From: Alphaproteobacteria bacterium
GTDB taxonomy: Bacteria > Pseudomonadota > Alphaproteobacteria > Rs-D84
Direction: 5' to 3'
DNA: 64,000 nt
Assembly (NCBI GenBank): GCA_017409215.1
Contig: JAFQTD010000034.1
Span: 431 to 64,430 of the forward strand
Positions within the stretch are counted from its first letter, which is position 1. Each line of letters opens with the position of its first letter. This document shows positions 23,819 through 47,651 of this stretch, in pieces. The translations under genes were made by a program, and so were the position numbers. Under the pieces are notes generated by a model. That model saw only the letters and a program-made list of their open reading frames with translations. It had not been told where the DNA came from and did not search any database.

Positions 23819-24328
23819 TTAATATCTGCCAATACAACCCAAATAAGAATTTCCCGTAGATTCCAGTATATTGATGAATTGTGTCTGGTTCCTGCCCGAG
23901 AATAGCGCCAAAATAGTCCCCGCATCTGTGGCCAGCATATCCGCAACAGTTGCAATTCCGGAATTCATTTTCTTAAAAAAGCCACTGGTTGGGTATATTT
24001 CTGCCGCCAGCAGTTGCGTTTTTCCAGTTAATTTCACTTTTTTTTCAGATTCTATGACCATCAATTGGCATTCCGATGATATTATAATCTTGTCGCTAAT
24101 TACGCCGTCGCTGCCTAATAATTCGCCCCACCAACCGGTTGAGCCACAGAATACCGGATAATAAATAATAGTGTTTGGGTTATTGCTTAATATCTCTGCA
24201 ATATCGATATCGTCTGTACAAACATCAGGCATAATGCCAGTTGTATTGTTTATTACCTTTCGTGCCAGCTGGTATTCACTGTCCCCAGTTGTCTTGCGTG
24301 GCCAATAAAGAATCGGAAACTTTGTCAT
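23819..24328 (-). CDS. Hypothetical protein (169 aa)
   Basis: ORF between rpmE and the first VirB6-like gene on the same strand; no motif recognised and no clear SD. Confidence 0.45.
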   Translation of the reverse strand: MTKFPILYWPRKTTGDSEYQLARKVINNTTGIMPDVCTDDIDIAEILSNNPNTIIYYPVFCGSTGWWGELLGSDGVISDKIIISSECQLMVIESEKKVKLTGKTQLLAAEIYPTSGFFKKMNSGIATVADMLATDAGTILALFSGRNQTQFINILESTGNSYLGCIGRY

Positions 24329-24395
24329 TGCTATAAATTATAGCAGATTCGGCATACATAAAAAAGGGGGGTGGGTTAAATAAAGGACTTGATTT

Positions 24396-25685
24396 TTATT
24401 TTTTTATCGATTCGAATATTTTTTTTGCGCCCTTCCACAGAATATCTGTATTGTTTTTAGCTGTTTTATAGAAGTCGTCAGAAATATTTACATTAAATAT
24501 AGATTTAGAAAGTGCGGGAATCATTGTCATAAACATTGCTAAAAACAGCCCCATCAGTATAACTGTCACCAGACTGTCATTATTTAACATTAACGCATCC
24601 ATCAAGAATTTCGAATCGTTTTCAGTCAGTGCTTTTGCCAGTGCTGATTGTCCCTGCCAATCACCAAAAACAGCATTTATAAACATTGTTGCAAAGGCTA
24701 CAAATACACCTGTTATTGCCAATCCCAGTGTTCCATTAATTGCATTATCTATTATCTTAGAAATGGTTGTTCCTGCGCCTTGTGGAAAAATTTTCCAACC
24801 CTTGAACAGCCACGACAGCAACATAAATGGCAGCATAACCAAATCCATTGATAACTTTATAAATATTTCCAAGAAATATATGGGGATTGGCACCAGTGCT
24901 AAAAAGAACAGTACCAAAACCAGTGCGCCCGCAAACAGCAAAATTACGTTTGGAAATATCGGAATTTCCCACATTATTTTGTGCATATATTCATCATTAA
25001 ATGCCATATTTACCATTGTCCATCCGACCGCCATCCCCAGTCCAGTCATCTGGTGAACCCCAGACAATTCGCATGCCAGATTATGTCTTAACTTGGGCGA
25101 GAATGCCCCATAACTTGCGGCACGTTGGTCTATTGATGCCTGGTCTGCGATTGCGGTTGCAATAACACACGAATCGAAAGTGTCGTCATGTACGACCGCG
25201 CGATTCAAAGATAGTCCGACATTAAATATAGGTTGTATCGCGATATCGCTAATTAATCTGGGCAATGGTGCAAGCAAAACAATGGAAACGATTGCCAGCT
25301 TAACTATTTTGTTTGTAAAATCGCTGGCCTGTGACCAAGGGTTATCAAATTTTGAGTCCATCATATTGCTGGTCAGTGTCCAAGCAAACCAAATCGCCAT
25401 CAATATTGCAGCAAACGGAATAATAGTTTTTCCCAAGCTTGAATATATGCGTGGTAAAATATCTGACATTGTTGACATAATGCTGGCGAACATATCACAG
25501 GTCCAGCACGAACTAAAAAATTGATATGCTTCATTTGTGTTTACTGGAAATGCACTTCGGTATATTGAAAATCCAGCGATTGTGGTCAGGCCACCGACCA
25601 CCGCGACAACAACAGGTGCCCACGCTGCGGCTGTCAGTGGCAGGAATGATAAAAACGTTATCCAAAATTTTTTTAGTCGACTCAT
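24396..25685 (-). CDS. VirB6/TrbL-like polytopic membrane protein, paralogue 1
   Basis: 429 aa and multi-TM. N-terminal SCWTCDMF motif, a Cys pair in the central loop, the Trp-containing TM GMAVGWTMV and a Lys-rich tail WKGAKKIFESIKK. Paralogous to the four ORFs on the opposite strand. Confidence 0.6.
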   Translation of the reverse strand: MSRLKKFWITFLSFLPLTAAAWAPVVVAVVGGLTTIAGFSIYRSAFPVNTNEAYQFFSSCWTCDMFASIMSTMSDILPRIYSSLGKTIIPFAAILMAIWFAWTLTSNMMDSKFDNPWSQASDFTNKIVKLAIVSIVLLAPLPRLISDIAIQPIFNVGLSLNRAVVHDDTFDSCVIATAIADQASIDQRAASYGAFSPKLRHNLACELSGVHQMTGLGMAVGWTMVNMAFNDEYMHKIMWEIPIFPNVILLFAGALVLVLFFLALVPIPIYFLEIFIKLSMDLVMLPFMLLSWLFKGWKIFPQGAGTTISKIIDNAINGTLGLAITGVFVAFATMFINAVFGDWQGQSALAKALTENDSKFLMDALMLNNDSLVTVILMGLFLAMFMTMIPALSKSIFNVNISDDFYKTAKNNTDILWKGAKKIFESIKK

Positions 25686-25718
25686 TGTTTTTAATTATAC
25701 CATATTTTGCAATAAATG

Positions 25719-25727
25719 TGATATAAT
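25719..25727 (+). promoter_or_regulatory. Extended -10 promoter element (TGaTATAAT) for the plus-strand VirB6-like operon
   Basis: TG-n-TATAAT at 25719-25727, 24 nt upstream of the 25751 ATG, inside a 65-bp divergent intergenic gap. Confidence 0.4.
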
Positions 25728-25750
25728 TGAAAAGATAAAAAAATCAGAGA

Positions 25751-27010
25751 ATGTATTTATTGAAAAAAAACTTGTTTTTTGTCGCGGTGTTATTGGCATT
25801 ATTTATGCCAGATGTTGCGTTTGCTAATATCGTGGACAATTTGAATATTGCGCCATTTGTACCGATTGTATTAAATTCTATGATGATGATTGCAACACGT
25901 GGCTATGATTTTTTTGTTGGTAATGGTGACGGGATAATATATTTACTGATTTGGGGTTTTTTAGGGTTAACAACGGTATTGTATGTTGTAAAAATGTATT
26001 TTCCCAAAACGTGGCTGGGTTTTCTGGGGTTTTCTGGTGGTGGTGAATTGTATGAAGGCAAAATAACAGGATGGCAAATCGCTGAAAATTTATTACGTCC
26101 TGCGATGCGCGCGGCGATTGCGGCCATATTGTTATTACAGATACGACCAATGTTTTTAACCCACTGGTTGGTCAACCCGTTCTTAGAGCTGGGGTCGATA
26201 TACACCACTGCAATAACCAATACGATAAATGATTCTGGCACTGCGCCCAAGATAGAATGTCCATCGGATATATTATCTCAGGGCTGGATATCACAGGATT
26301 CGTGTGTTTTTCTGACACAACCTGTTTCAGATTTATCGCATGCAAACAATCAGATTATAAAACGTGGTTTTGATTATTTGACCAGTGGCATTCGCGGGCT
26401 TTTTTCACCTATACCTGCTGGTGGGCAAAATTTTATGAATGTTATAACTGGTGTGTTATTGATATTTACATTTGTCAGTTGTAATTTATTTATGGCGTTA
26501 TTGATTATTCAAGGGATTTTTAATTTCGGTATGCAGCTAATTTTATATCCATTTAGTGTTCTTACCTATGTTGTAAAATCCAGTGACAAGTGGCTTGATA
26601 TATGGCCTGCATTTGGCGGAATTACCAAGGCATTACAAGATTTAATTATCACGATGATTTCGTGTTCATTTATGTTATGTGTTGATTTAGCGATTGTTCG
26701 TGCATTATTTCATATGAACAAATCTATATATGTTGTTGCGGCAGATGGTTCTGCATACACTAATATGCCCCAGGCTGCAGATACTGCGATGGGTTTTGGC
26801 GAGCATTCTGTGACGTGGTTATCGGCAATATTGACTTTTTATTTGTTTTTCAAGTTATTTGATATGACGCAGAATCAATTAAAGTCCTATGTCGGCAGTG
26901 GTATGGACGGTTTGTATAATGCTGTAAAGTCTGACAGTAAACGTATGTTTGAAAAAGCAAAAAATATAAAGGACACATTTCAGTCTGTAAAGAAGTGGAT
27001 AAAAAAGTAA
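25751..27010 (+). CDS. VirB6/TrbL-like polytopic membrane protein, paralogue 2
   Basis: 419 aa. Signal-peptide-like N-terminus (LLALFMPDVAFA), loop Cys pair (IECPSD...DSCVF), multiple TMs and tail KDTFQSVKKWIKK. Confidence 0.55.
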   Translation: MYLLKKNLFFVAVLLALFMPDVAFANIVDNLNIAPFVPIVLNSMMMIATRGYDFFVGNGDGIIYLLIWGFLGLTTVLYVVKMYFPKTWLGFLGFSGGGELYEGKITGWQIAENLLRPAMRAAIAAILLLQIRPMFLTHWLVNPFLELGSIYTTAITNTINDSGTAPKIECPSDILSQGWISQDSCVFLTQPVSDLSHANNQIIKRGFDYLTSGIRGLFSPIPAGGQNFMNVITGVLLIFTFVSCNLFMALLIIQGIFNFGMQLILYPFSVLTYVVKSSDKWLDIWPAFGGITKALQDLIITMISCSFMLCVDLAIVRALFHMNKSIYVVAADGSAYTNMPQAADTAMGFGEHSVTWLSAILTFYLFFKLFDMTQNQLKSYVGSGMDGLYNAVKSDSKRMFEKAKNIKDTFQSVKKWIKK

Positions 27011-28207
27011 ATGGAAAATTTGATATCATCTTCAATAGATAATACGATTCAGTGTTGGGGCTGTTCTGTGTTTGACAGGTTGTTTCAGCTTGTTTCAACG
27101 GTCGCTACATCCATATATGATTATTTTAGTGCGATATGCATTGTGTTATTTCTTGCGGCATTTACTGTTTTGATAGTCAACGCGATATTTATAAATGGCA
27201 AAAACGATTTTTCTGACCCGTGGTACAAGGATTCCATTCAAAAAGTATTCATATCTGGCATTGTCGCATTGGGTATAATGGGGGCCGGGGTTATGTTTCC
27301 GCGGGTGCTGACCATGATTACGTTTGAACCTGTTGCGCAAATGACCACGACGTATACACAGTATATGTTGCGTCAGGATACAGCTGCAATCGAACAGCGT
27401 GTTTCCTATACCCCGGTTGAGATGCAAGACAATGGAATTTTTCGTCCACAACTGCGCGACAAAATAATTCTGTTAATGAAAACATCGATATCCCAGTTTC
27501 AATCTTATATAAAACTTGGTGTTGCTGTAATGGACAGTGCGTTTACGTGGAATGCATTGTTGGGGATTGGTGCATTACTTAAACATATTGTTTTGTTTTT
27601 TATAGGTCTGGCACTAACGATTGGTTTTTTTAGGTTGTTCTTTAAATACAGTTGTTATTTTATCGATGTTATAATTGCGATGGCTCTGTTTGCTTTTTTC
27701 TTTCCGTTATCTTTGGCGATGTTTCCGTTCCAAGGCGTAAAATCTGCGCCGAAATGGGCGCAAAATCTGGGGGGCAGTGTTGGTACCAAACAAATAAAAT
27801 CCTTGATAAATTCGATTGTCACATTGGGGGCTGTTGTTATCAGCTATACTGTAATAATGTTAATTCTTGCAAATTTCTTTATCGCGACGGACCAGAATAT
27901 AAATGATTTAATGACAGCAATAACCAGTGGCGAAATATTTGCATTTGATTTAAATACAGAAAACATAGCTGCGATGAGCTTAATGAGTTGTATTGTTTTG
28001 ATGTATGTGCTAAATTACATAGAATCCCAGATTCCACAGATATCAAAGACAATATTAAGCGCATTCAATGTAGAAGAAAAGAAGGATGCTGGCGAGAAGC
28101 TTGGCAACGATATGATGCGTCTGGGCGAACTGGCGCTGGGTAAAGTGTTGCAAACAGGCAAGATAATATTGTCTGGCGGTAAAGATAAAGAGGAAAGTGC
28201 TAAATAA
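27011..28207 (+). CDS. VirB6/TrbL-like polytopic membrane protein, paralogue 3
   Basis: 398 aa. The QCWGCSVFDRLFQLVSTVATSIYDYF N-terminal segment, then a TM, then GKNDFSDPW mirrors the VirB6 N-terminal layout. Its start abuts the previous stop. Confidence 0.6.
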   Translation: MENLISSSIDNTIQCWGCSVFDRLFQLVSTVATSIYDYFSAICIVLFLAAFTVLIVNAIFINGKNDFSDPWYKDSIQKVFISGIVALGIMGAGVMFPRVLTMITFEPVAQMTTTYTQYMLRQDTAAIEQRVSYTPVEMQDNGIFRPQLRDKIILLMKTSISQFQSYIKLGVAVMDSAFTWNALLGIGALLKHIVLFFIGLALTIGFFRLFFKYSCYFIDVIIAMALFAFFFPLSLAMFPFQGVKSAPKWAQNLGGSVGTKQIKSLINSIVTLGAVVISYTVIMLILANFFIATDQNINDLMTAITSGEIFAFDLNTENIAAMSLMSCIVLMYVLNYIESQIPQISKTILSAFNVEEKKDAGEKLGNDMMRLGELALGKVLQTGKIILSGGKDKEESAK

Positions 28208-29697
28208 TGTTAAAGGCGCAATTGATTATAGCCGCTGTTAAATTAATTATGGGTGCGATTGCGCTGGGTATTGGTATTTGGTATTTGTCGTCATCATTGG
28301 GTGGTGCGGCATTAACCTATACCAGTATGGATAATTTTTTAACATCAATTGGTGTTGAAAACGGTGATATTACGACATCTAATGGTTGTTTTTTGTGTCA
28401 GTATATATCGGATTTGTTCGCTGTGCTAAGCGATGCAACCGCGCGTTTTTGGGGTGTTATGGTTGATTGGGTATGGGTATTGGTTGCGCTGGGGTTTGGT
28501 GTTTTTATTTTAATTCATACCATGCAGTATATGTACGATAATGCTAAAAAGACCGCAACACTAGATGCCAAAGAGCATAAATTTGTATTCAAAGACTGGT
28601 TTGATAAAGTATGGAAACAGGGGGTTCGTGTTTTACTTGTTGGTGCATTAATTGGCGCGCTTGGTATGGGTGGGACAGATGCGCTAAAAACGATAACGCA
28701 AATAACTGTGACACCTGTATTATATGTTGGGTCTGAACTTTCGATGGCGGCAACCGGCGTGACCAGTGCCGCGCAATGTAATGCATTGGTCGCGATTGGC
28801 GAAGATGGCAACGACCAGATTTTTAATTCGGTTATTCGTCCATTTATGTGTGTTATTGGTAATTTGAACAGTGTTATGCTTGCTGGTGCTGCGGGTGGAT
28901 TTGCCTTGATGAACTATGCATGGTTGGGAATGGGTGGTGGTGTTATAACATGGTTTGCTGGTTTGGCGCTTGTTATACTGTTTCTGATAATTGGTTTTAA
29001 TTTATTTTTCCAGGTTTTATCGGTTTTCTTCAAGTTGATATTTTTTATAATATTTTTGCCTTTATTATTGGCTGCTGCAGCCTTTGAGGGTGTTTGGTCC
29101 AAGGTAAACTCTTTGGTAAATAATGGGATTAGTATGCTGGTTTCATCTGCGGTCAACATTATTGCGATAACGTTAAAGGTTGTTATTTTGTATGCAACGA
29201 TATCGTTTGCGGCCGACACGTATTTCCCTGGTCCGATGGATGGCTACAGTACGATTTTGCCACCGATGATGGGTACACACACAGAAAATCCTGATTCCCA
29301 AACCTTGTCCGTTATGAATGTTTTTTCAGAGTGCGAATCGATTTCAATGACAGAACAGGGGCTGGACAAAGAAATATTCAAGAATTGTTTTTCCGCCAAA
29401 CGCGCCCAGGTTGAACGTCAATATCCTGGTGCATTTGATTTTCTGCGCGATGGGTGGGATTTTCTGTTGTTAATGTTGTGTTTGTTCTTTTTATATAACT
29501 ATATCATCAGTCCCAAGATTGATAAAATATTCCCCAAGGGTTTCAAGTTAGTAAACTTCACAAATGGTAATGAAAAGAAATTCGAAACAACCGGTGAAGA
29601 ATTTGATTATGGTGCATGGGTTCACAGTCTGGGCAAAAAGGCGTGGGGAATTCCAAAACAGATTGCAGAGGCTGCAACAAAAAATATGTCAAACTAG
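28207..29697 (+). CDS. VirB6/TrbL-like polytopic membrane protein, paralogue 4
   Basis: 496 aa. GCFLCQYISDLF motif, loop Cys pair (AAQCNAL...PFMCVIG) and MNYAWLG. One-base TAATG overlap with paralogue 3. Confidence 0.6.
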   Translation: MLKAQLIIAAVKLIMGAIALGIGIWYLSSSLGGAALTYTSMDNFLTSIGVENGDITTSNGCFLCQYISDLFAVLSDATARFWGVMVDWVWVLVALGFGVFILIHTMQYMYDNAKKTATLDAKEHKFVFKDWFDKVWKQGVRVLLVGALIGALGMGGTDALKTITQITVTPVLYVGSELSMAATGVTSAAQCNALVAIGEDGNDQIFNSVIRPFMCVIGNLNSVMLAGAAGGFALMNYAWLGMGGGVITWFAGLALVILFLIIGFNLFFQVLSVFFKLIFFIIFLPLLLAAAAFEGVWSKVNSLVNNGISMLVSSAVNIIAITLKVVILYATISFAADTYFPGPMDGYSTILPPMMGTHTENPDSQTLSVMNVFSECESISMTEQGLDKEIFKNCFSAKRAQVERQYPGAFDFLRDGWDFLLLMLCLFFLYNYIISPKIDKIFPKGFKLVNFTNGNEKKFETTGEEFDYGAWVHSLGKKAWGIPKQIAEAATKNMSN

Positions 29698-29700
29698 GAA

Positions 29701-31047
29701 ATGAAAATGCGACAATGCATAAAACGTTTTTTATCTATTATTTGCATAACGCTTGTATCGTTGTGTTTTCTTGCGCCATCGTTTTGTGAAACAACAAATT
29801 TACCGTCTGGTGATATTGGTGATTATGGTGCATGGGCGACAGAAAACAATCGTAAAAAGTTTACGGCAGACCTATCGTCGGATATTGAAAATTTCCAAGG
29901 CGATTTTCAAAACAAAGTTGTTGCAGATTATGTCCCAGCAGAGGCAAAAATAGGCCTTGCCTTTATGAATGGTTTGTCATACATTGCGCAGGTTTTAAAT
30001 TCGTCATTAGTTCGCTTTATGATAGTGTTTATCATAGTTATGTATTTATTATGGGTCACATTCGAAGCGTATACTATAATAATAGGACAGGGTAAAGTTG
30101 AAGGTTTTGCATCAGGCAAAGGCACAATGTTCGAGATAGTAAAAAGAGGCGGTCTTGTACTTATGTGGATTGCTGTCCTAAAAGTTGGTCCCGCCCAGGC
30201 GTTTATGGTGGTTATGTCGCCTATTTTACAGGTTGCAAATTATATTTCTGATGGGATATTAACTGTTGCATCTGGTGCGATGGGGGTGGACGAATTGCCT
30301 GATACATGTGCGGCGATACGTGAATATGCGGCTGCGCATATTTCGGATAGTAATATATTAAGTGCATCTCAGGTCAGTGATATAATGTGCCTGCCATCAC
30401 GTTTGTCTGGTTTTTGTTATTCTGCGGTTGCTGTTGGCTGGCGATGGATGTTATACGGTATTGGTACCAGTGCGTTTTCGTTTTTGTGTGGTTTAATATT
30501 TGTTTGTGGTTTTGTGTATCTTACCTGGCGGTTTGTTTTTATTGCATTTGGTGTTATTGCCGACTTGTTCCTTGCGGTAATGTTATTGCCGTTTACAGCC
30601 TTGTCTGAAACGATTAAAGAAACATCGTACAAAGGAATAATAGGCAGATTTTATAACGGTTTTCTGGGCGTGTTCAATGTTTCTAATATAAACAAAGAAA
30701 TAGGTTCCTTAGAATCGCAGGTTGGCAGAATTATTGATGCTGCGCTTCATTTCATAGTTTTGTCTATTGTTGTCACACTGTGTTCTGCATTTTTGTCTCA
30801 GACAGTGACAGTAAATTCTATGAACGGGGTGCCACATTTTAACAGTCCTGGGTTCTTTATAACCATATTGATTTTAGCATTGGCGATTTATTTTGCCAAA
30901 CAAGCGGAAACTATTGCCACAGAACTGGGTGGTTCTATAAACACATCGATTGGTGATAATTTACGAAACGATGTAAAGGGACGTTGGAAATCGATCAAAA
31001 AGAACGCAGAAAAAATACGCGATATAATTCGTGACAGAAAAAAATAA
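29701..31047 (+). CDS. VirB6/TrbL-like polytopic membrane protein, paralogue 5
   Basis: 448 aa. Signal-like N-terminus, loop cysteines (DTCAAI...IMCLPSRLSGFCY), VAVGWRWMLYG and tail WKSIKKNAEKIRDIIRDRKK. Confidence 0.55.
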   Translation: MKMRQCIKRFLSIICITLVSLCFLAPSFCETTNLPSGDIGDYGAWATENNRKKFTADLSSDIENFQGDFQNKVVADYVPAEAKIGLAFMNGLSYIAQVLNSSLVRFMIVFIIVMYLLWVTFEAYTIIIGQGKVEGFASGKGTMFEIVKRGGLVLMWIAVLKVGPAQAFMVVMSPILQVANYISDGILTVASGAMGVDELPDTCAAIREYAAAHISDSNILSASQVSDIMCLPSRLSGFCYSAVAVGWRWMLYGIGTSAFSFLCGLIFVCGFVYLTWRFVFIAFGVIADLFLAVMLLPFTALSETIKETSYKGIIGRFYNGFLGVFNVSNINKEIGSLESQVGRIIDAALHFIVLSIVVTLCSAFLSQTVTVNSMNGVPHFNSPGFFITILILALAIYFAKQAETIATELGGSINTSIGDNLRNDVKGRWKSIKKNAEKIRDIIRDRKK

Positions 31048-33808: not shown

Positions 33809-33883
33809 ATTTGTGAAAAAATACGCTTGTATTAGCACGTGATATATGATAAAATAATCTGTAAAGAGAAGGGAAATTTAGCT

Positions 33884-36100: not shown

Positions 36101-36712
36101 ATTTGTTTCCCATAAACCACATCCCGAACTTTTAACAAAACCCGCACTCACACATTCGTCATTCCCGCGAAGGCGGGAATCCATTGCCCCGCAGGGACAT
36201 CTAAAACATTATCATGCCCCCCACACACATCATCACTTTCGTACATCGCCCCCCACATCCACTTTTCGTCATACCCGCATCGGGCCCCGCAAAAATTGGA
36301 AATTTTTGTGGGTGATTTCCAGGCGGGTATCCATTGCCCCGCAGGGACATATTATTGTGAATTTTTCACACCCTACAAAAATTACAAATTTTTAGCTCTT
36401 GTCATCCTGTGGCTTGACCACAGGACCCAGGTGTATTCCTTTAAAACATTACTACACACACACTCTCTCTTCGTCATATCCGCACATCGCCCCCAACACC
36501 CTCTTTTCGTCATACCCGCGCAGGCGGGTATCCATTGCCCCGCAGGGACATCTAAAATATTATCAAGCCCCCCCCACACATCATCACTTTCGTACATCGC
36601 CCCGCACTCACACACCCGTCATACCCGCATCGGGCCCCGCAAAAATTGGAAATTTTTGTGGGTGATTTCCAGGCGGGAATCCATTGCCCCGCAGGGACAA
36701 TTTTGTATATAA
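36100..36712. repeat. Mosaic palindromic (MITE-like) repeat cluster A
   Basis: Four copies of the 30-bp core aggcggg(a/t)atccattgccccgcagggaca(t) at 36171, 36321, 36522 and 36671. Two ~194-bp direct repeats (36157-36350 and 36508-36699). Palindromes cccgcg.aggcggg, caaaaattggaaatttttg and cctgtggcttgaccacagg. Confidence 0.85.
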
Positions 36713-42225: not shown

Positions 42226-42567
42226 TTAATCAATCCATCCCCGTTCTTGTGCTGCAACCCCCAGCACATTCATTGCGTGTGCCCAAATTGTGACAGCATA
42301 ATTTTCACACCATATATGTTGATGGGGTGCGCGTTTTTTATCGCCAAATTTTTTCATTACCGACAAATCATCATCGGTTAATTTTCCACACAAATACAGT
42401 TTTGTAATCAGTGTTTCTACATCCAGAATTTCACAAGGTCTGCGTGTTTGGCTGTGCCTTCTGTATGAAAAATCATTTCGCACAGATTTAGAATACAAGA
42501 ACCAGAACCATAATTGTTCTGGGGATTGGAATTTTTCAGTTGCATAGTTAGCCAAGCTTTGTGTCAT
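42226..42567 (-). CDS. Hypothetical protein (113 aa from MTQSL)
   Basis: An aaggag RBS lies 9 nt upstream of the ATG at 42567. The ORF-track start at 42609 is probably read-in. Confidence 0.5.
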   Translation of the reverse strand: MTQSLANYATEKFQSPEQLWFWFLYSKSVRNDFSYRRHSQTRRPCEILDVETLITKLYLCGKLTDDDLSVMKKFGDKKRAPHQHIWCENYAVTIWAHAMNVLGVAAQERGWID

Positions 42568-42847
42568 TTTTTCTTTCTCCTTTGTTTTTTTTATTTTGTT
42601 TTTGGTCATCGATATATATACCCAAAGAAAAGATTCTTGTAAAATATTACAACCAGCGGTTGAATTGCGAATCGAAAATCCGATTCAAAACGCATATTTA
42701 TAAAATGGTACGCGAATCGGCTTTTATTCCTAAAACGGGTATTACATCAGCTTATTTAATAAAAAAAAGTGCGCGATAATGCGCACTGAAAATAAAATAT
42801 CAATATACTAATTTTCGTTTATCTCCTTTGCTTAATCGTTTGTTGTC

Positions 42848-42889: not shown

Positions 42890-45370
42890 TTATAACAACG
42901 GCGGGAAGCAGTCGCCACCGGCCTCTGGACAGCAATTGAAACCCATTTCACCCATATCTGTATAGATTTCACCTGCACAGCAACCATTTTCATCTGGTAA
43001 ACTGCCATCCATACAGGTCAGTGCCGTATCTTCTGCAGCTGGCGCTTCTGTCACAGGGTTTTCGTATGGATTAACAACAGTGCCGTCATCGTTATATTGT
43101 ATCCCCAGAATTTCTTCGTTAAACTGTTGTGTTCCTTCGCCACCCAGTTCTTGAATCTTTTTCTGATACTGTTTCGTTTGGTCTTCAGTATAGGTCTTAT
43201 ATTGTAAAGCTTTCTTTGATTGATAGCTTTGCGATTGGCACCAGAACAGCAGTGTTTGATAAGAATAACCACCACATGCCGCATTGTTAGCATTAGTATT
43301 TTTACGGCATTCTTCAATTGGTCGGCACTGTCCCGATACTTCATCGCACTCACAAAAGTTCAATGTTTGAAACGCTCTCGATTGTCCCATCCATTCCGGT
43401 GATTCATAATCAATTGGGTCGAAAGCATGCATTCCTTTGCCCGTTGAACGTCGCGATCCGTTATCGTATCCCAAGGCGCATTTTTTCCCACTATTTGTAT
43501 CGTCACCACATGATGCGACCAAATCCACAGGTGAATATACGGTTATACGTGTACCTGCGGCAATTGTAAATGGCGGAACCGAACTGTTCATCATATCCAG
43601 CATTAATTTTTGTGCAACCGCATTCCACGCGCTAATAATTTCAGACTTTGCTAACTCAGATGAACGCACTGTTCCACTTTGAACAACTGTATTGTTATCC
43701 AGGTCAATCTGGTTAACAAACGCATCCGCCACTGGATTAATCAGGTTAATCGCCGCAGGAACAAAAGAAGTCAACATTGGCATAAAGAATTGTTCCAGAT
43801 AGTCTGTACTGCCACGTCCCAGAACACCTTCACGTCCTTGTGCGTCACCAGAAAAAGGATCGTTATTTCCTTCTCCTGTAAAATTATACTCCATCCCATT
43901 TGGTAAGACGAACTGGTACCATTTTATCGACATACGCCCGATTGATGCGTATGGCCCGGGCAACTTGCCTGTCACATACCCCAGCATTAATGTCCCAGCC
44001 GGTATAATAACATTGCGTCCTGAATCAGAATAAACGTTTCTATCAACAGTTGCGCGCACTGGCAAGAAACTGTTTTCTAACGCTTCGGGGTCTGCACGCA
44101 CCTCTGACACAATTGTTGCAGGAATTGGTTTATATTGACGTAATATGAATTGTCTGTCGTATGGTCGTGTTGGTCTTAATCTGTCTTCTCCAGACCCCAG
44201 ATATTCGTCTACATCAATTGGCGCTGCTGGCTTTACAATATCTTGACCTGATGATAACTCACGCCCCATTGTTCCAGTAGGTGTTGAAGGGGTATCGCTT
44301 TGTTTTGCACGAATAACTTGTTTTATTGCGGGTCTCATTTTTAATTCAGGCAACACACCACTATTTACCACCGACAAACCGATATGTTCTGCATCTGTTC
44401 CGATTTTTTTACCACTGTCATCTGTGATGATACCATTGTCTGGATTATAAGTCCCTTCGGCATTGGTACAGTCCTTGTCCGCAAAAGAATGATAATAATA
44501 CGCACCACCCGATGGCTTTACCCACCCGATTTGTTTGCCTGATGTTCCGTATGCAGGGAATGCAAAATCTGAACATCCATCAGGAATCACAATTTCAATA
44601 TCTTTCTTTGCTTTTTTTGCAGGCTTTTTAATTGCCGGTGCCAATGCATTAACAGATTTTTTGACGTTTTCCTTTACAGGCTCTGGTTCTGGCTCTGGTT
44701 CTGGTTCTTCCACAGGTTCTGGTTCAAAATCAAGTTCTTCTTCTGGCTCTTGATTTACGAATGGCTCTTCCTCTGGTTCTTCCGCTGGTTCAGGTTTTGG
44801 TTCAGGCTCTGACACAGACATTGGCACAGGGGTTGGTTCTTTGATTGGTGCTTGCGCCCCCAGTGTCAAAACGATTTTAGATTCTTTTTTCATTGTTTGT
44901 GGTTCTTTTACGTCATGCCATTCGACGAACAAAGAAACGTTTGTGACGGGCTGAACAGTGGTTGGTTCATATTTCAAAAATATTTTGCACCCAATTGTTT
45001 TATTAATGGGCTGGATTACAGTGCAATTCTGCTGTACGTTTAACCCGTTAATTTCTGTATAATTATTAACCGCCAAGACATTCACATCCGCACTTGCAGT
45101 TATACTGATTTCTTGATTTTTTGTGTCACCAACCAAGACTTCAGCCCAGTTGATGATATCAGGTTCGATTTTTATTTCTGCTGTTGCCTTTTCTACATCA
45201 TTCAAGTTGGCTTTTTTATTGCTATCATCGCCAAACAATAACATCAATAATATCAACACCAACACAAACGCAGTCAGCATCAACAGCCATTGCACGCGCT
45301 TTGGCATTCCCTGTGTCAAACCCGCCAGTTTTGTTTTCAGAACATTAAACTTTTCTTTTATCTTTGCCAT
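42890..45370 (-). CDS. virB10: VirB10/TrbI-family T4SS protein, enlarged (826 aa)
   Basis: N-terminal TM, Pro/Glu-rich linker (PEPKPEPAEEPEEEP...EPEPEPEPEPV) and a TrbI core (VIIPAGTLMLGYVTGK...IKWYQFVLPNGMEYNF...DAQGREGVLGR...TIAAGTRITVYSPVDL). It follows virB9. Confidence 0.8.
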   Translation of the reverse strand: MAKIKEKFNVLKTKLAGLTQGMPKRVQWLLMLTAFVLVLILLMLLFGDDSNKKANLNDVEKATAEIKIEPDIINWAEVLVGDTKNQEISITASADVNVLAVNNYTEINGLNVQQNCTVIQPINKTIGCKIFLKYEPTTVQPVTNVSLFVEWHDVKEPQTMKKESKIVLTLGAQAPIKEPTPVPMSVSEPEPKPEPAEEPEEEPFVNQEPEEELDFEPEPVEEPEPEPEPEPVKENVKKSVNALAPAIKKPAKKAKKDIEIVIPDGCSDFAFPAYGTSGKQIGWVKPSGGAYYYHSFADKDCTNAEGTYNPDNGIITDDSGKKIGTDAEHIGLSVVNSGVLPELKMRPAIKQVIRAKQSDTPSTPTGTMGRELSSGQDIVKPAAPIDVDEYLGSGEDRLRPTRPYDRQFILRQYKPIPATIVSEVRADPEALENSFLPVRATVDRNVYSDSGRNVIIPAGTLMLGYVTGKLPGPYASIGRMSIKWYQFVLPNGMEYNFTGEGNNDPFSGDAQGREGVLGRGSTDYLEQFFMPMLTSFVPAAINLINPVADAFVNQIDLDNNTVVQSGTVRSSELAKSEIISAWNAVAQKLMLDMMNSSVPPFTIAAGTRITVYSPVDLVASCGDDTNSGKKCALGYDNGSRRSTGKGMHAFDPIDYESPEWMGQSRAFQTLNFCECDEVSGQCRPIEECRKNTNANNAACGGYSYQTLLFWCQSQSYQSKKALQYKTYTEDQTKQYQKKIQELGGEGTQQFNEEILGIQYNDDGTVVNPYENPVTEAPAAEDTALTCMDGSLPDENGCCAGEIYTDMGEMGFNCCPEAGGDCFPPLL

Positions 45371-45405: not shown

Positions 45406-46950
45406 TTATTGTAATCTAACGACACTGCAACTTGTGCCACTAAATTTCAGCATTTTATCGCACAGTTTTTGCGCCGTATCAATACTTGCAAACGGCCCGA
45501 TACGCAGGCGATACATTCTGGCGCTGGTTGATGCGGCACCCAAATCACCAACCCCCTGTGTATCAACGGAATAGAATACCATATCTTCGTATGGTGTTAA
45601 CAACCCCTGACCATCTTCACCACTAAATTTAGCCAGCAACATTGCCCAATAATCATCCAGTGCCTTAACGGACGTATCTGATTTTAATTCCACTGCGACC
45701 CCAACTTGGTTGCTGGAAATCAGTGGTATATTTGTCTGTGGCAGGTATGCGCCCGCAGTATTGCGTTGTTGTGGCAACATATTAACGACACTGCCCGACG
45801 ATTGTACTGTATTCTGTGGCATGCCATAAAATCCCGCTGGTGTATAATACCCCGCGCCTGTCATTGGGTTAACAGTTTGTGTATTTCCCATAAATACAGG
45901 TGACCCTGTATAATTTGTTCCCATACTCATTGCGGCCATACTGTCGGTGTATGCGATATTATTCAAAGATTGACCAGACAACATACTTTGTGCGACGTTG
46001 GCCTCTGCCAGTGCCATAACAGATGCAGTATCGGCAATCAAGAATGGTTTTTCACGTTTCTTGATACAGACGATACGCTGACCGCTGCGTAAAACCATAT
46101 CTCCGACCGCCTCGACAATTAACAGTCTGCCGTCTTCCCCGTCTGTGCGGAATCCAACAGGGGATTCGCCACCTTCGACCAACAGGGAAACCACAGGTCT
46201 TTGTGTCATCGAAATAACCTTGTCACCAAAGTCAATATATGTAAAGATTCTGTCGCGCCATACGCGTTCTGGTGCGATAACATAATCGTCTGGGTTTGGA
46301 ACAAAGATATCTAAATCAAATCTAAATTCAGATGGGTCGATTTTCATAGACTTAATCCAACCGTAATCTTCGCCATCTACCCCGACAACATTTGATGTGG
46401 TTGGCGCTGCCTTGAATATAGAACGTGCCCCCCCAGATGTTTTGCCAGTTGTTCCCATTGCGACTGGCAGACTGCCATTCCCATCCAGCACAACATCGAC
46501 CTGAGAATACATAATTTCGCTGGCATTACTTGGGTGTGCCTGTAAATAAAAGATGTATTTATTCCCAGATTTGCCGGTCACAATCATATTTGTATCAGAA
46601 CCCTGATTGCCTTGCTCGGGCGAAATAAACATTGTTCTATCGCCTTGTGTTGTGTCAATCTGGAATTGTCCAGTATCACCTACGATTGCATCCTCAATCT
46701 GTTCGCCGTTTGGCAACGTGACCATTGTCACCATTCCATTGCGCAATTTTAATGGTAATACACTGCCTGGGGACCAAGCCAATTGTGCATAGCCTGGTTT
46801 TATACTGCCGTCAACCATATTGGCATTTGGATTATCCCAGGCCTCTTGTATCCCATATGGCTCATTATCATTAGAATACGCAGGTAATGAAACCAGTCCC
46901 ATCAAACAAAAAACAGAAACGCTAAACTTTAATTTTCTTAAAAAAACCAT
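45406..46950 (-). CDS. virB9: VirB9/CagX-family T4SS protein with a C-terminal SPOR-like module (514 aa)
   Basis: Signal peptide (LVSLPAYS). VirB9 N-domain (LKLRNGMVTMVTLPNGEQIEDAIVGDTGQFQI) and C-domain (DRIFTYIDFGD...PVVSLLVEGGESPVGFRTDG..LLIVEAVGDMVLRSGQRIVCIKK). Tail MYRLRIGPFASIDTAQKLCDKM. Confidence 0.8.
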   Translation of the reverse strand: MVFLRKLKFSVSVFCLMGLVSLPAYSNDNEPYGIQEAWDNPNANMVDGSIKPGYAQLAWSPGSVLPLKLRNGMVTMVTLPNGEQIEDAIVGDTGQFQIDTTQGDRTMFISPEQGNQGSDTNMIVTGKSGNKYIFYLQAHPSNASEIMYSQVDVVLDGNGSLPVAMGTTGKTSGGARSIFKAAPTTSNVVGVDGEDYGWIKSMKIDPSEFRFDLDIFVPNPDDYVIAPERVWRDRIFTYIDFGDKVISMTQRPVVSLLVEGGESPVGFRTDGEDGRLLIVEAVGDMVLRSGQRIVCIKKREKPFLIADTASVMALAEANVAQSMLSGQSLNNIAYTDSMAAMSMGTNYTGSPVFMGNTQTVNPMTGAGYYTPAGFYGMPQNTVQSSGSVVNMLPQQRNTAGAYLPQTNIPLISSNQVGVAVELKSDTSVKALDDYWAMLLAKFSGEDGQGLLTPYEDMVFYSVDTQGVGDLGAASTSARMYRLRIGPFASIDTAQKLCDKMLKFSGTSCSVVRLQ

Positions 46951-46973: not shown

Positions 46974-47651
46974 TTAGTTGATTTTGTAAAAAACGCTATC
47001 AAGTGGATCGCCATCACCTTCGACGATTTTGTATTCACTGACACGCAACCCCAATGGGTTATCGATACGTCCTGCCGTATCTATCTCTGTATCACCGATT
47101 TCTTTTAATTTGATTTGAACGGTATAGTTTTTGGCGCTGTTTGTTAAAACGTCCCCATTAATATCGGTACAAAAATAGCGAAAGTTGATTCTGTATGCAT
47201 TTTCAGACGCAAAGTACATCATTTTATCTTCATACGACACATGGCACGAGAAGTCAAAATCTGACGTCGTTCCCATAATTCCCTTGAACATTTCGGTATT
47301 GATAAAGTCCGCATAAACATCTTCTGCTGACATTGCGCGCACTTTACCATTCCAGATATTCTGCATAGTTTCTGTGTTGTTAAACACTTCGTTCCTGTGT
47401 CTAATATATTCACGAATAAAGGCGCGTTTGTACAATTCAATATTTTTATCATTGTTTGCTGTTGACATTTCAACCAGCCTTACTGTCTTAGCACTAGATG
47501 GTTCTGTCAATAAAAAGAATATCTGTGGTCTGTTCAGCGGGAAAGTTTTTATCAGCGCAATCAGCAAACCAACCAGCACAACAATTGCAGTTGCGCACAC
47601 AAAGACCAGCAGTCTTGATACTAAAATCGGCGGTTCTACGCGTTTTGACAC
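46974..47651 (-). CDS. virB8: VirB8-family T4SS protein
   Basis: 225 aa with a single N-terminal TM, an NTF2-like periplasmic part with FIREYIRHRN, and the C-terminal NPLGLRVSEYKI motif (compare NPLGFQVTSY). First gene of the operon. Confidence 0.8.
   Translation of the reverse strand: MSKRVEPPILVSRLLVFVCATAIVVLVGLLIALIKTFPLNRPQIFFLLTEPSSAKTVRLVEMSTANNDKNIELYKRAFIREYIRHRNEVFNNTETMQNIWNGKVRAMSAEDVYADFINTEMFKGIMGTTSDFDFSCHVSYEDKMMYFASENAYRINFRYFCTDINGDVLTNSAKNYTVQIKLKEIGDTEIDTAGRIDNPLGLRVSEYKIVEGDGDPLDSVFYKIN

What the first reader, a model, noticed from the sequence alone, without database searches (positions are those of the whole stretch)
24396..31047. Five-paralogue array of VirB6/TrbL-like polytopic membrane proteins, one copy divergent, with no virB3/virB4 nearby
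Five consecutive ORFs (429, 419, 398, 496 and 448 aa) share one architecture. Each has an N-terminal segment and a TM, then a short polar D/K/W-rich stretch (DSKFDNPW, GKNDFSDPW), then a TM bundle. A central loop follows, with a Cys pair in 4 of 5 copies, then a G/W-rich TM (GMAVGWTMV, VAVGWRWMLYG, MNYAWLG) and more TMs. Three copies end in a Lys-rich amphipathic tail (WKGAKKIFESIKK, KDTFQSVKKWIKK, WKSIKKNAEKIRDIIRDRKK). Three copies carry an N-terminal C-x2-C-aromatic motif (SCWTCDMF, QCWGCSVF, GCFLCQYI). The other two start with signal-peptide-like segments instead. Four genes are translationally coupled: 27010/27011 abut, 28207 is a TAATG overlap, and 29697/29701 are 3 nt apart. The fifth is divergent across a 65-bp gap that contains an extended -10 element. 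The layout matches VirB6/TrbL, and tandem VirB6 expansion is a hallmark of the Rickettsiales vir homolog (rvh) T4SS. Here, however, no virB3/virB4 is adjacent, one copy is inverted, and the proteins are shorter than rickettsial RvhB6 proteins generally are. If profile searches do not support VirB6, this is an uncharacterised five-paralogue membrane system.
Basis: partly seen in the sequence, partly recalled or inferred. Interest (0 to 1): 0.7.

Follow-up and report, generated by a model that had tools for sequence, protein, structure and literature searches.

The report
Five divergent VirB6-like secretion-system paralogues
Five neighbouring membrane-protein genes in an uncultured, small-genome gut alphaproteobacterium (Candidatus Enterousia) are very distant copies of VirB6, the inner-membrane core of a type IV secretion machine, so the "many VirB6 copies" design regarded as a signature of Rickettsia-like bacteria also occurs in this lineage, where databases call the genes hypothetical.

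Summary
Five ORFs (A 24396-25685 on the minus strand; B, C, D, E 25751-31047 on the plus strand) have the stated junctions, motifs and divergent promoter gap. Profile-profile comparison with reversed-sequence controls shows they are true paralogues. The block keeps its order and orientation in all 80 related species-level genomes (Ca. Enterousia, order Rs-D84).

No Pfam or NCBIfam model hits any of the five directly. Three independent lines still place them in the TrbL/VirB6 superfamily:
- An exhaustive profile search finds remote relatives, and 22 of 73 carry PF04610. Four pass the curated cut-off on the same region.
- The extended family profile aligns collinearly with canonical VirB6 (92.6%; reversed control 1%). 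The alignment includes the P-x7-F...W motif.
- Two AlphaFold models of C have R388 TrwI/VirB6 chains as their top PDB matches.

The lineage's T4SS genes are scattered: virB8-9-10 lies 12 kb away in this window, virD4 occurs in at least 297 genomes, and virB3-virB4 was found in one MAG.

The proteins form a largely unannotated clade marked by a CxxC motif. Relatives in other uncultured alphaproteobacteria also sit in tandem arrays of four or five genes. Best reading: non-redundant, co-assembling VirB6 subunits of an rvh-like T4SS. This is a new variant of a known kind, of moderate interest.

The parts
24396..25685 (-). Paralogue A (429 aa). VirB6-like, with an extra N-terminal TM, CxxC at 60/63, a loop Cys pair at 173/205, and the motif LPFMLLSWLFKGW. 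Transcribed divergently from B.
   Evidence: ORF. Paralogy to C at P=4e-12. The orthologue HMM hits the Pfam-TrbL-positive P0241 at 8e-17 and P0265 at 1e-14. Cys and Trp are 100% conserved.
25686..25750 (.). 65-bp divergent intergenic region. It carries an extended -10 (TGATATAAT) for B-E on the + strand. On the - strand a TATAAT lies 7-8 nt before A's ATG.
   Evidence: Read directly from the sequence and found by the consensus scan. These are consensus matches only; function is inferred.
25751..27010 (+). Paralogue B (419 aa). It has a signal-like N-terminus, no CxxC, a loop Cys pair at 170/185, and the motif YPF...DKW.
   Evidence: ORF. Linked to E at P=3e-7 and to A at 4e-5. The B HMM hits family member L186:13681-15744 at 8e-7. 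All B orthologues are recruited at iteration 2. B is the weakest member.
27011..28207 (+). Paralogue C (398 aa). Domain-only form with CxxC at 15/18 and P232-x7-F240...W249. Its ATG abuts B's stop codon.
   Evidence: 862 homologues, all unnamed. Two AF2 models whose top PDB hits are TrwI/VirB6. Motif map.
28207..29697 (+). Paralogue D (496 aa). It has an extra N-terminal TM, CxxC at 61/64, Cys pairs at 191/215 and 376/394, and the motif LPLLLAAAAFEGVW. Its start overlaps C's stop as TAATG.
   Evidence: The D HMM hits L186:15734-17278 at 1e-24 and the Pfam-TrbL-positive L190:7528-8805 at 3e-5.
29701..31047 (+). Paralogue E (448 aa). It has a signal-like N-terminus, no CxxC, and a loop Cys pair at 203/230. 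The Pro of the motif is kept but the Trp is not. E is the most divergent copy (48% mean identity among its orthologues).
   Evidence: The E HMM hits the Pfam-TrbL-positive P0265 (= L187:2685-4379) at 7e-8.
46974..47651 (-). virB8 homologue (225 aa). Part of the same scattered T4SS.
   Evidence: PF04335 at 1.3e-9. Conserved next to nusG in 14 or more genomes.
45406..46950 (-). virB9 homologue (514 aa) with a C-terminal SPOR domain.
   Evidence: PF03524 at 5e-23 and PF05036 at 2e-5. Synteny.
42890..45370 (-). virB10 homologue (826 aa), with a TrbI domain at residues 412-615.
   Evidence: PF03743 at 1.5e-13. tblastn finds annotated plasmid VirB10 genes. Synteny.
42226..42609 (-). orf127, a conserved small gene directly downstream of virB10. 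Role unknown; possibly T4SS-associated.
   Evidence: Conserved at 60-81% identity at this position in 12 or more genomes. No Pfam hit.
23819..24328 (-). hyp169, a very conserved 169-aa soluble protein directly downstream of A on the same strand. Whether it belongs to the system is uncertain.
   Evidence: Syntenic in all loci that reach it. 83% mean column identity. No Pfam or PDB-sequence hit. Absent from the arrays of other lineages.

Best explanation
The five genes encode strongly diverged members of the TrbL/VirB6 superfamily. VirB6 is the polytopic inner-membrane subunit that, in solved T4SSs, forms the pentameric platform at the base of the stalk or channel.

**What the proteins are**
- They belong to a largely unannotated clade found in uncultured alphaproteobacteria.
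- The clade's hallmarks are an N-terminal CxxC just before the first helix of the domain, a central loop with a conserved Cys pair, and a conserved P-x7-F-polar-W segment equivalent to the VirB6 segment AP-x7-F-E-x-TR-x-Y-x3-W.

**How they likely work in Ca. Enterousia (order Rs-D84; genomes of about 0.75-1.0 Mb in the nine MAGs of PMC12306168)**
- They are chromosomal and are kept as five one-to-one orthologues in every genome examined.
- They belong to a T4SS whose genes lie in separate islets: virB3-virB4; the five virB6-like genes; virB8-virB9-virB10-orf127; and virD4.
- Inferred: the five products are non-redundant and are made together. B-E form a translationally coupled operon, and A is read from the divergent promoter region.
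- Inferred: they co-assemble into the inner-membrane and periplasmic core of this machine, which most likely translocates effectors into a partner cell.

**Shown versus inferred**
- Shown: paralogy, conservation, remote homology and fold resemblance to VirB6, and presence of the other T4SS genes in the lineage.
- Inferred: periplasmic location of the Cys motifs, co-assembly, and substrate or target.
For: **Paralogy**
- hhalign of orthologue profiles gives P from 4e-12 to 4e-5 for eight of the ten pairs, which link all five collinearly. Reversed controls all give P>=0.014.

**Conservation**
- The order and orientation suhB-hyp169-A(-)|B-C-D-E(+) are kept in 80 species-level genomes.
- Orthologues are 48-64% identical on average, against about 20% between paralogues.

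**VirB6 link, line 1: transitive homology**
- An exhaustive search of 1.84 billion representatives with the A/C/D profile finds 563 clusters.
- 22 of 73 full-length remote hits match PF04610, and no competing membrane family appears.
- P0221, P0254, P0241 and P0265 score 34.2, 29.3, 29.0 and 28.6 bits against a gathering cut-off of 25.9. For P0254, P0241 and P0265 the TrbL match overlaps the best stretch matched by our profile; for P0221 it overlaps the second matched stretch (residues 314-392). Their library-wide E-values are 2e-15 to 4e-11.
- PGAP names P0254 "type IV secretion system protein".

**VirB6 link, line 2: profile-profile alignment**
- The extended family profile, built without canonical sequences, aligns with an 82-sequence canonical VirB6 profile at 92.6% and P=4.5e-7. 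The alignment is collinear over 267 columns. The reversed control gives P=0.057.
- The best-supported column block aligns P232/F240/W249 of C with P179/F187/W197 of VirB6.
- The Pro is invariant in all five. The Trp is conserved in A, B, C and D.

**VirB6 link, line 3: fold**
- Two AF2 models of C (pLDDT 64 and 69) have R388 TrwI/VirB6 chains as their top PDB matches: four of the top six, then the top seven. The best hit has E 4e-3, probability 1.0 and TM up to 0.48.

**T4SS context**
- virB8, virB9 and virB10 are in the window and conserved across the lineage.
- virD4 (PF02534, 7.6e-54) lies next to the array in L027. tblastn also finds VirD4-like segments about 5 kb upstream of suhB in L040 and L041. 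virD4 is present in at least 297 genomes at 69-92% identity.
- virB3-virB4 is present in a MAG that also carries the array (L270 and L071).

**Recurrence in other lineages**
- Tandem arrays of five (L186; L188/189, with virD4 nearby) or four (L190) members of the same family occur elsewhere.
- Some relatives are fused to an M23 peptidoglycan hydrolase.

**Background**
- VirB6 and DotA form pentamers (PMC9259494, PMC12857230).
- Four VirB6 paralogues are reported to be expressed and to interact in Ehrlichia. This rests only on the title of Bao et al. 2009 as cited in PMC12857230; the paper itself was not read.
Against: - No direct hit of PF04610 or any NCBIfam model to any of the five, even at E<=1.
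- Direct hhalign of each paralogue profile against canonical VirB6 is not significant.
- PDB sequence and profile searches never find VirB6.
- Foldseek E-values are only 4e-3 to 0.1 and TM is 0.3-0.48. The models have medium confidence.
- The local iterative search that finally recruits canonical VirB6 used a small pool and could drift.
- B connects to the family only through E, A and one remote member.
- E lacks the Trp that is essential in A. tumefaciens VirB6.
- virB11 and virB2 were not found, and virB3-virB4 was seen in one MAG only, because whole genomes could not be scanned.
- There are no expression or interaction data.
- Arrays of four copies (L190 here; Wolbachia, and Ehrlichia, the latter by a cited title only) show that five is not a fixed number.
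Confidence: 0.72

Rival explanations
1. The five are VirB6-family proteins that do not co-assemble. Each would form its own homo-oligomer, or act as a regulator or decoy. They would then be alternative, condition- or substrate-specific versions of the T4SS core, as has been hypothesised for duplicated rvh components ("autoregulate effector secretion", PMC11077975).
For: - The paralogues are very divergent, at about 20% identity, and differ at the N-terminus: CxxC, signal peptide or extra TM.
- E lacks the conserved Trp, so it could be a non-canonical or regulatory copy.
- A has its own divergent promoter region.
- Copy number differs between lineages, at four or five (PMC12407924).
Against: - B, C, D and E are translationally coupled, which favours joint and roughly stoichiometric synthesis.
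- All five are retained one-to-one in 80 species with genomes of about 1 Mb, where redundant genes are normally lost.
- VirB6 paralogues are reported to interact in Ehrlichia. This rests only on the title of Bao et al. 2009 as cited in PMC12857230.
Confidence: 0.2
2. The array is a T4SS-independent envelope system, such as a transporter or other membrane complex. It would share only an ancient fold or ancestry with VirB6, and its position in a genome that also has T4SS genes would be coincidental.
For: - No direct Pfam or NCBIfam hit.
- The array is never adjacent to virB3, virB4, virB8 or virB11 in the loci examined.
- The structural match is weak in absolute terms.
Against: - Family members that pass the curated TrbL threshold are its own close relatives.
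- No transporter family appears among the Pfam hits of 73 relatives.
- virD4 sits next to the array in several genomes and lineages.
- No other virB6 candidate was seen for a T4SS that otherwise has B3, B4, B8, B9, B10 and D4.
Confidence: 0.06
3. The genes are decaying remnants of an integrated conjugative element and no longer function.
For: VirB6 genes are typical of conjugative elements.
Against: - All five ORFs are intact in 80 species, with invariant Cys, Pro and Gly positions.
- The flanks are housekeeping genes, and no integrase or relaxase is present.
- GC content matches the surrounding DNA.
Confidence: 0.02

Closest known systems
TrbL/VirB6 family (Pfam PF04610, COG3704), e.g. A. tumefaciens VirB6 and R388 TrwI
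   Same: - A polytopic helical inner-membrane protein with a large central loop.
- A collinear profile alignment that includes the N-terminal helix/TM1 and the TM segment AP-x7-F...W.
- TrwI chains are the best structural matches in the PDB.
- Encoded in genomes that also carry virB3, B4, B8, B9, B10 and D4.
   Different: - Below the detection limit of PF04610 and NCBIfam models.
- An invariant CxxC lies before TM1: 109 of the 110 remote members that cover the site have it, against 0 of 82 canonical VirB6.
- Conserved Cys pairs in the loop.
- Five paralogues instead of one gene.
- Not located inside a virB operon.
RvhB6a-e / tandem VirB6 paralogues of the Rickettsiales vir homolog (rvh) T4SS (PMC2653234, PMC11077975, PMC12407924)
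   Same: - Four or five tandem, mutually very divergent VirB6-domain genes on the chromosome of a reduced-genome alphaproteobacterium. Rickettsia paralogues are about 80% divergent from one another, and the copies here are about 20% identical.
- T4SS genes scattered in islets.
- The VirB6 domain averages 413 aa in Rickettsia, against 398-496 aa here.
   Different: - The proteins here are domain-only. RvhB6 proteins are 674-1154 aa, although relatives in other MAG lineages are 550-1300 aa.
- virB3-virB4 is not upstream of the array.
- One copy is inverted.
- All Rickettsia copies hit PF04610 and COG3704 (PMC2653234). None of the copies here does.
- The host lineage is order Rs-D84, which NCBI places in Alphaproteobacteria incertae sedis, although some MAGs are labelled Rickettsiales.
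- Direct sequence comparison with Rickettsia RvhB6 could not be done.
DotA of the Legionella Dot/Icm T4SS (functional VirB6 counterpart, per PMC12857230)
   Same: A polytopic central T4SS component that forms a pentamer on the machine's axis. This serves as a functional analogy for a channel or protochannel role.
   Different: No sequence or structural match to DotA was seen in any search here, and it belongs to a different T4SS class (T4BSS).

Membership tests
TrbL/VirB6 superfamily (PF04610) | Direct significant match to the curated family model | tested here: not met
   No PF04610 hit at E<=1 for any of the five. No T4SS model in NCBIfam hits them either.
TrbL/VirB6 superfamily (PF04610) | Homology demonstrable through intermediate sequences or profile-profile comparison | tested here: met
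   - 22 of 73 remote relatives match PF04610, and four pass the gathering score, with the TrbL match overlapping a stretch matched by our profile.
- The extended profile against canonical VirB6 gives 92.6% and P=4.5e-7, against P=0.057 for the reversed control.
- Individual paralogue HMMs hit Pfam-positive members: A 8e-17, C 3e-8, D 3e-5, E 7e-8. B reaches the family only through a Pfam-negative member.
TrbL/VirB6 superfamily (PF04610) | Four to six hydrophobic helices with a large central (periplasmic) loop | tested here: met
   Hydropathy analysis finds about 5-7 TM-like segments around a polar loop of 90-110 residues in each protein. AF2 gives an all-helical model with very long helices. 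The periplasmic location of the loop is inferred, not tested.
TrbL/VirB6 superfamily (PF04610) | Conserved TM/cytoplasmic segment with the invariant, essential Trp (PMC2653234) | tested here: inconclusive
   The P-x7/8-F segment aligns with high confidence. A Trp 3-10 residues after it is conserved in A, B, C and D, but its exact spacing varies. E has none.
TrbL/VirB6 superfamily (PF04610) | Fold like solved VirB6 (TrwI of R388) | tested here: inconclusive
   TrwI chains are the top hits for two models (E 4e-3 to 0.1, probability 0.85-1.0). However, TM is only 0.3-0.48 and rmsd about 10 A, with model pLDDT 64-69. Only paralogue C was modelled.
TrbL/VirB6 superfamily (PF04610) | Encoded together with other T4SS genes in the same genome | tested here: met
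   - virB8, virB9 and virB10 lie 12 kb away in the window.
- virD4 is adjacent to the array in L027 and present in at least 297 genomes of the lineage.
- virB3-virB4 is present in MAG SC0338_S5_7, which also carries the array.
TrbL/VirB6 superfamily (PF04610) | Forms the pentameric stalk base and contacts VirB5, VirB2, VirB8 and VirB4 | not testable with these tools
   Needs multimer modelling or experiment.
Rickettsiales vir homolog (rvh) T4SS | Multicopy, tandemly arrayed VirB6 | tested here: met
   Five paralogues: four in tandem and one divergent.
Rickettsiales vir homolog (rvh) T4SS | virB3-virB4 directly upstream of the virB6 array | tested here: not met
   No VirB3 or VirB4 in the window or within 10 kb of the array in 80 genomes. 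In L270 they form a separate islet.
Rickettsiales vir homolog (rvh) T4SS | Duplicated RvhB4, RvhB8 and RvhB9, and no VirB5 (hallmarks listed in PMC11077975) | not testable with these tools
   Only single copies of virB8 and virB9 were seen in the DNA held. Whole genomes could not be scanned.
Rickettsiales vir homolog (rvh) T4SS | T4SS genes scattered in several chromosomal islets | tested here: met
   Four separate islets: B3-B4, B6x5, B8-B9-B10 and D4.
Rickettsiales vir homolog (rvh) T4SS | Specific sequence relationship (orthology) to RvhB6a-e of Rickettsia, Wolbachia or Ehrlichia | not tested
   No rickettsial RvhB6 sequence could be fetched.
Rickettsiales vir homolog (rvh) T4SS | Host organism belongs to Rickettsiales | tested here: not met
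   Ca. Enterousia is GTDB order Rs-D84 (PMC12306168) and NCBI Alphaproteobacteria incertae sedis. A few related MAGs are labelled 'uncultured Rickettsiales bacterium'.

The most novel reading that the evidence does not exclude
The five paralogues are the five protomers of one obligate hetero-pentameric VirB6 platform, with one copy of each per machine. The homo-pentamer seen in R388 and Dot/Icm would then have been replaced by five specialised positions. This would explain three things:
- why exactly five copies recur in Ca. Enterousia, in two other uncultured alphaproteobacterial lineages (L186, L188) and in Rickettsia;
- why all five are retained one-to-one in genomes of about 1 Mb;
- why four of them are translationally coupled.

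It would give the long-unexplained VirB6 proliferation of rvh-type systems a structural rationale. It would also imply that this design predates, or lies outside, the Rickettsiales.
Probability: 0.22. Interest if true: 0.8.

Novelty: new variant of a known kind. Interest (0 to 1): 0.55.

Why it matters
- **It extends a supposed Rickettsiales signature.** Multicopy VirB6 is listed among the hallmarks of the rvh T4SS, which has been called "a bona fide rickettsial signature" (PMC11077975). The purpose of the duplications is still described as "a mystery" (PMC12407924). The same design appears here in gut-dwelling, reduced-genome alphaproteobacteria of order Rs-D84, and in at least three other uncultured lineages.
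- **The genes are invisible to current annotation.** The proteins are so diverged that Pfam and NCBIfam do not match them and the source records call them hypothetical. The published metabolic reconstruction of these bacteria never mentions secretion or VirB (PMC12306168). A conserved T4SS suggests that they interact directly with another cell, whether host, protist or bacterium.
- **The family offers compact study material.** Its members are short, domain-only VirB6 paralogues with clear signatures: CxxC, loop disulfide candidates, and the P-x7-F...W motif. They could be used to test whether VirB6 paralogues build a mixed pentamer.

Tried and rejected
**Searches that found nothing**
- Direct Pfam and NCBIfam scans of the five proteins.
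- phmmer and hmmsearch against PDB sequences with C and with alignments A1, A5 and A6. There was no VirB6 hit, and the best matches were chance helical proteins.
- Direct hhalign of each paralogue profile against 3-sequence and 82-sequence canonical VirB6 profiles. None was significant.

**Attempts to reach true Rickettsia RvhB6 sequences**
- The search for related loci with the 12-sequence bridge alignment failed because no stretch was conserved enough.
- The same tool with the long TrbL-positive P0315 found no relatives.
- The search for homologous proteins with the bridge profile returned only 28 hits, all uncultured.

**Search for T4SS ATPases**
- tblastn with three plasmid VirB4, VirB11 and VirD4 sets against the window and all array and virB10 loci found only VirD4.
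- VirB4 and VirB3 appeared only after fetching the virD4 neighbourhoods, and in one locus only.
- VirB11 and VirB2 were never found.

**Other dead ends**
- Extending the window through proteins encoded at its edges gave only short contigs, or no record at all.
- hyp169 was tested as a possible system component. It has no family or PDB match and is absent from the arrays of other lineages.
- The paper on Ca. Enterousia genomes (Begmatov et al. 2023) is not in the library.

**Evidence deliberately down-weighted**
- The local iterative HMM search eventually recruits canonical VirB6. I treat it as weak evidence because of possible profile drift.
- The promoter and terminator scan is not above shuffled expectation.

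**Hypothesis rejected**
- A mobile-element remnant, on the grounds of conservation and context.

Full report
The five ORFs are present at exactly the stated coordinates: A 24396-25685 on the minus strand (429 aa), B 25751-27010 (419 aa), C 27011-28207 (398 aa), D 28207-29697 (496 aa) and E 29701-31047 (448 aa).

The junctions are as described. B's TAA is followed directly by C's ATG. C and D overlap as TAATG. D's TAG is separated from E's ATG by GAA. The 65-bp A/B gap contains TGATATAAT on the + strand. The consensus promoter scan of the region is not enriched over shuffles, so these promoter assignments are readings of the sequence and not findings.

- CxxC at A60/63, C15/18 and D61/64 is 100% conserved in about 80 orthologues of each.
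- The loop Cys pairs A173/205, B170/185, D191/215 and E203/230 are also 100% conserved.

**2. The five are paralogues, beyond shared hydrophobicity.** Single sequences already link A, C and D: phmmer gives A-C 4e-14 and C-D 4e-9, and BLASTP gives A-D 1e-6. B and E are only marginal at that level.

I extracted the orthologues of each gene from 80 related genomes and compared the five profiles with hhalign:

| Pair | Result |
|---|---|
| A-C | 97.6%, P=4e-12 |
| B-E | 93%, P=3e-7 |
| A-D, A-E, C-D, D-E | about 85%, P about 5e-6 |
| A-B | 70%, P=4e-5 |

These alignments are long and collinear, apart from a short 63-column C-E match (P=2.4e-5) that is not in the table. All 20 comparisons against reversed templates gave P>=0.014. 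B-C and B-D are not significant on their own, so B joins the family through E and A.

**3. Organism and conservation.** Homologues of C are all unnamed or "hypothetical", carry no Pfam domain, and come from uncultured Alphaproteobacteria MAGs of animal guts. The genome scan names many of them Candidatus Enterousia. This genus belongs to GTDB order Rs-D84. The nine Enterousia MAGs described in PMC12306168 are about 0.75-1.0 Mb and lack a TCA cycle, respiratory chains and standard transporters. NCBI places the genus in Alphaproteobacteria incertae sedis.

The block suhB - hyp169 - A(-) | B-C-D-E(+) keeps the same order and orientation in all 80 species-level genomes. Mean orthologue identity is 64% for A, 60% for B, 54% for C, 62% for D and 48% for E, against about 20% between paralogues. 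The window itself is ordinary chromosome: nusA-infB, yidC, lspA, gyrA, a class I tRNA synthetase, and nusG-rplK...rpoBC.

**4. Is it VirB6? The direct tests fail.**
- PF04610 and all NCBIfam models miss all five, even at E<=1.
- PDB sequence searches find nothing.
- hhalign of each paralogue profile against canonical VirB6 is not significant. I built that canonical profile from plasmid and genome VirB6 genes that Pfam confirms as PF04610.

**5. Three indirect and independent lines support VirB6.**

(a) *Transitive homology.*
- An exhaustive HMM search of 1.84 billion representative proteins, using a profile of C orthologues plus window A and D, found 563 clusters at E<=1e-3 and 150 at E<=1e-10.
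- Of 73 full-length remote hits, 22 match PF04610 at E<=0.01. The only other recurrent family is Peptidase_M23, which occurs as an added domain.
- P0221, P0254, P0241 and P0265 score 34.2, 29.3, 29.0 and 28.6 bits against a gathering score of 25.9. The TrbL match overlaps a stretch matched by our profile in each: the best stretch for P0254, P0241 and P0265, and the second stretch for P0221.
- My independent canonical-VirB6 HMM hits the same proteins collinearly.
- PGAP names P0254 "type IV secretion system protein".
- Individual orthologue HMMs of A, C, D and E each hit Pfam-positive members. B hits a Pfam-negative member of the same arrays.

(b) *Profile-profile alignment.*
- I built a family alignment from the window family plus its remote relatives, without any canonical sequence. 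It aligns with the canonical VirB6 profile at 92.6% (P=4.5e-7), collinearly over 267 columns. The reversed control gives 1% (P=0.057).
- The highest-confidence block aligns the family's P232-x7-F240...W249 (C numbering) with VirB6's AP-x7-F-E-x-TR-x-Y-x3-W. That VirB6 segment holds the invariant Trp, which is essential in A. tumefaciens (PMC2653234).
- The Pro is invariant in all five paralogues and in the remote members. A nearby Trp is conserved in A, B, C and D. E has none.

(c) *Fold.*
- Two AlphaFold2 models of C were made with 32 and 66 sequences (pLDDT 64 and 69; pTM 0.61 and 0.64) and searched against 350,542 PDB chains.
- In absolute terms these scores are modest. The consistent ranking is the evidence.

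**6. T4SS context.** The window nevertheless holds virB8 (46974-47651), virB9 (45406-46950, with a SPOR domain) and virB10 (42890-45370) on the minus strand. This trio, followed by a small orf127, lies beside nusG in at least 14 related genomes.
- A bona fide virD4 (PF02534, 7.6e-54) stands alone next to suhB, beside the array, in L027. tblastn also finds VirD4-like segments about 5 kb upstream of suhB in L040 and L041. virD4 is present at 69-92% identity in at least 297 genomes of the lineage.
- In one virD4 neighbourhood I found a 98-aa VirB3-like gene followed by an 805-aa VirB4 (L270, from MAG SC0338_S5_7, which also carries the array in L071). The VirB3-like gene scores 21.6 bits on PF05101, just under the cut-off. 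The VirB4 scores 30.4 bits on PF03135, above the cut-off, and matches Sinorhizobium VirB4 at 2e-40 by tblastn.
- The lineage's T4SS is therefore dispersed over at least four islets. virB11 and virB2 were not found, but only fragments of genomes were accessible.

**7. The family beyond Enterousia.** The bridge proteins themselves sit in tandem arrays.
- L186 (28% GC) has five consecutive members of 557, 678, 687, 514 and 858 aa.
- L188/L189 (GCA_017958225.1) has five members of 705, 497, 687, 634 and 605 aa, with virD4 about 8 kb upstream.
- L190 (33% GC) has four members of 466, 425, 399 and 471 aa.
- The CxxC before the first helix is present in 109 of the 110 remote members that cover the site, and in none of 82 canonical VirB6 proteins. 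P107, G170, G199 and P232 are family-wide invariants.
- The D-type HMM prefers one specific member of the L186 array (1e-24, against 4e-11 or weaker for the other paralogue HMMs). This suggests that at least part of the duplication predates the split of these lineages.
- Wherever a name was found, these proteins come from uncultured "Alphaproteobacteria bacterium" or "Rickettsiales bacterium" MAGs and are called hypothetical.

**8. How it most likely works.** In the R388 structure VirB6 forms a pentamer at the base of the stalk, and DotA does likewise in Dot/Icm (PMC9259494, PMC12857230). Rickettsiales carry four or five tandem VirB6 paralogues whose role is unresolved (PMC2653234, PMC12407924).

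I infer that A-E are the VirB6 subunits of the Enterousia T4SS, and that they are non-redundant and made together:
- B-E are translationally coupled, and A is read from the divergent promoter region.
- All five are retained in every genome of a strongly reduced lineage.
- I also infer that they co-assemble into the inner-membrane and periplasmic core.

By analogy with the VirB6 topology recalled from the literature (N-terminus in the periplasm; not checked in any paper read here), the CxxC and the loop Cys pair would be periplasmic and could form disulfides. The extra N-terminal TM of A and D and the signal-like segments of B and E fit that orientation. None of this topology has been tested.

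The substrate and target of the machine are unknown. The lifestyle of the organism suggests effector delivery to a partner cell.

The bolder reading is an obligate hetero-pentamer with one copy of each paralogue. It fits the recurrence of five copies, but four-copy arrays argue against it. I give it about 0.2.

**9. Comparison and novelty.**

*What it works like:* VirB6 of an rvh-like, dispersed T4SS.

*Membership:*
- The TrbL/VirB6 superfamily is supported by indirect evidence. The curated model is not matched, and the Trp criterion is met in only four of the five.
- Strict membership of the rvh system is not established. The virB3-virB4 adjacency is not met, and the host is not an accepted Rickettsiales lineage. 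The B4/B8/B9 duplication and the absence of VirB5 could not be tested, and no direct comparison with rickettsial RvhB6 was possible.

I rate it a new variant of a known kind: a distinct, unannotated CxxC clade of short, domain-only VirB6 paralogues in tandem arrays outside the recognised Rickettsiales.

*Interest:* moderate (0.55). The kind of system is known. The finding widens the distribution of a supposed order-level signature, reveals a T4SS in gut bacteria whose biology is unknown, and gives a compact system for testing what VirB6 proliferation is for.

Noticed in passing
window 23819-24328 (-): hyp169 is a 169-aa soluble protein directly downstream of paralogue A. It is more conserved than any of the five (83% mean column identity across 12 species). 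It has no Pfam, NCBIfam or PDB-sequence match, and it is absent from the VirB6-like arrays of other lineages.
   Followed up: partly
window 25686-25705 and 24329-24348 (- strand): Both A and hyp169 have a perfect TATAAT ending 7-8 nt before their ATG (GGTATAATTAAAAACA-ATG and GCTATAATTTATAGCA-ATG). This suggests leaderless or nearly leaderless mRNAs.
   Followed up: no
window 36156-36700 and 38941-39483: A family of short interspersed repeats flanks the RNase J gene on both sides. It has seven copies of a 45-nt core (TCGTCATTCCCGCGCAGGCGGGAATCCATTGCCCCGCAGGGACAT) plus longer composite units of 83-102 nt. The repeats create spurious ORFs.
   Followed up: partly
window 45406-46950 (-) and 42890-45370 (-): The VirB9 homologue carries a C-terminal SPOR (peptidoglycan-binding) domain. 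The VirB10 homologue is unusually long (826 aa), with a Pro/Glu-rich linker and a Cys-rich C-terminal extension.
   Followed up: no
window 42226-42609 (-): orf127 is a small basic protein with no family match. It is conserved directly downstream of virB10 in 12 or more genomes and may be an unrecognised T4SS accessory gene.
   Followed up: partly
window 40452-41789 (-): A 445-aa Lys-rich soluble protein with no family match lies between the virB8-10 islet and an ACP-like gene. tblastn finds no homologue of it in the related virB10 loci. It could be an effector candidate.
   Followed up: no
window 39616-40407 (+): A 263-aa protein has an N-terminal phosphopantetheine-binding (ACP-like) domain followed by about five tandem repeats of roughly 13 residues ([13 protein letters not shown] and variants).
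   Followed up: no
window 33839-36028 (+): A 729-aa secreted, Cys-rich protein with no family match. Homologues at 33-38% identity lie a few kb downstream of the array, on the opposite strand, in many related genomes.
   Followed up: partly
L270 1701-4415 (+); also L270 4282-5691: A virB3-like gene (98 aa) and a virB4 gene (805 aa) form an islet in a MAG of the same lineage. Two unknown genes of 247 aa and 219 aa follow. The 247-aa ORF overlaps the 3' end of virB4, and the 219-aa protein has TM-like ends. Either could be a further T4SS component.
   Followed up: partly
P0228, P0264 (remote relatives; no window coordinates): Some members of the CxxC VirB6-like family are fused to an M23 peptidoglycan metallopeptidase domain. 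This combines a cell-wall hydrolase with the T4SS core subunit in one protein.
   Followed up: partly
L186 9734-10000; L190 5980-6135; L187 4383-5201; L188 12127-12984: Small conserved genes accompany the arrays in other lineages. An 88-aa and a 51-aa TM protein sit directly upstream of two arrays. A conserved pair (63/76 aa and 205 aa) lies on the opposite strand inside the L187 and L188 arrays. None has a family match.
   Followed up: no
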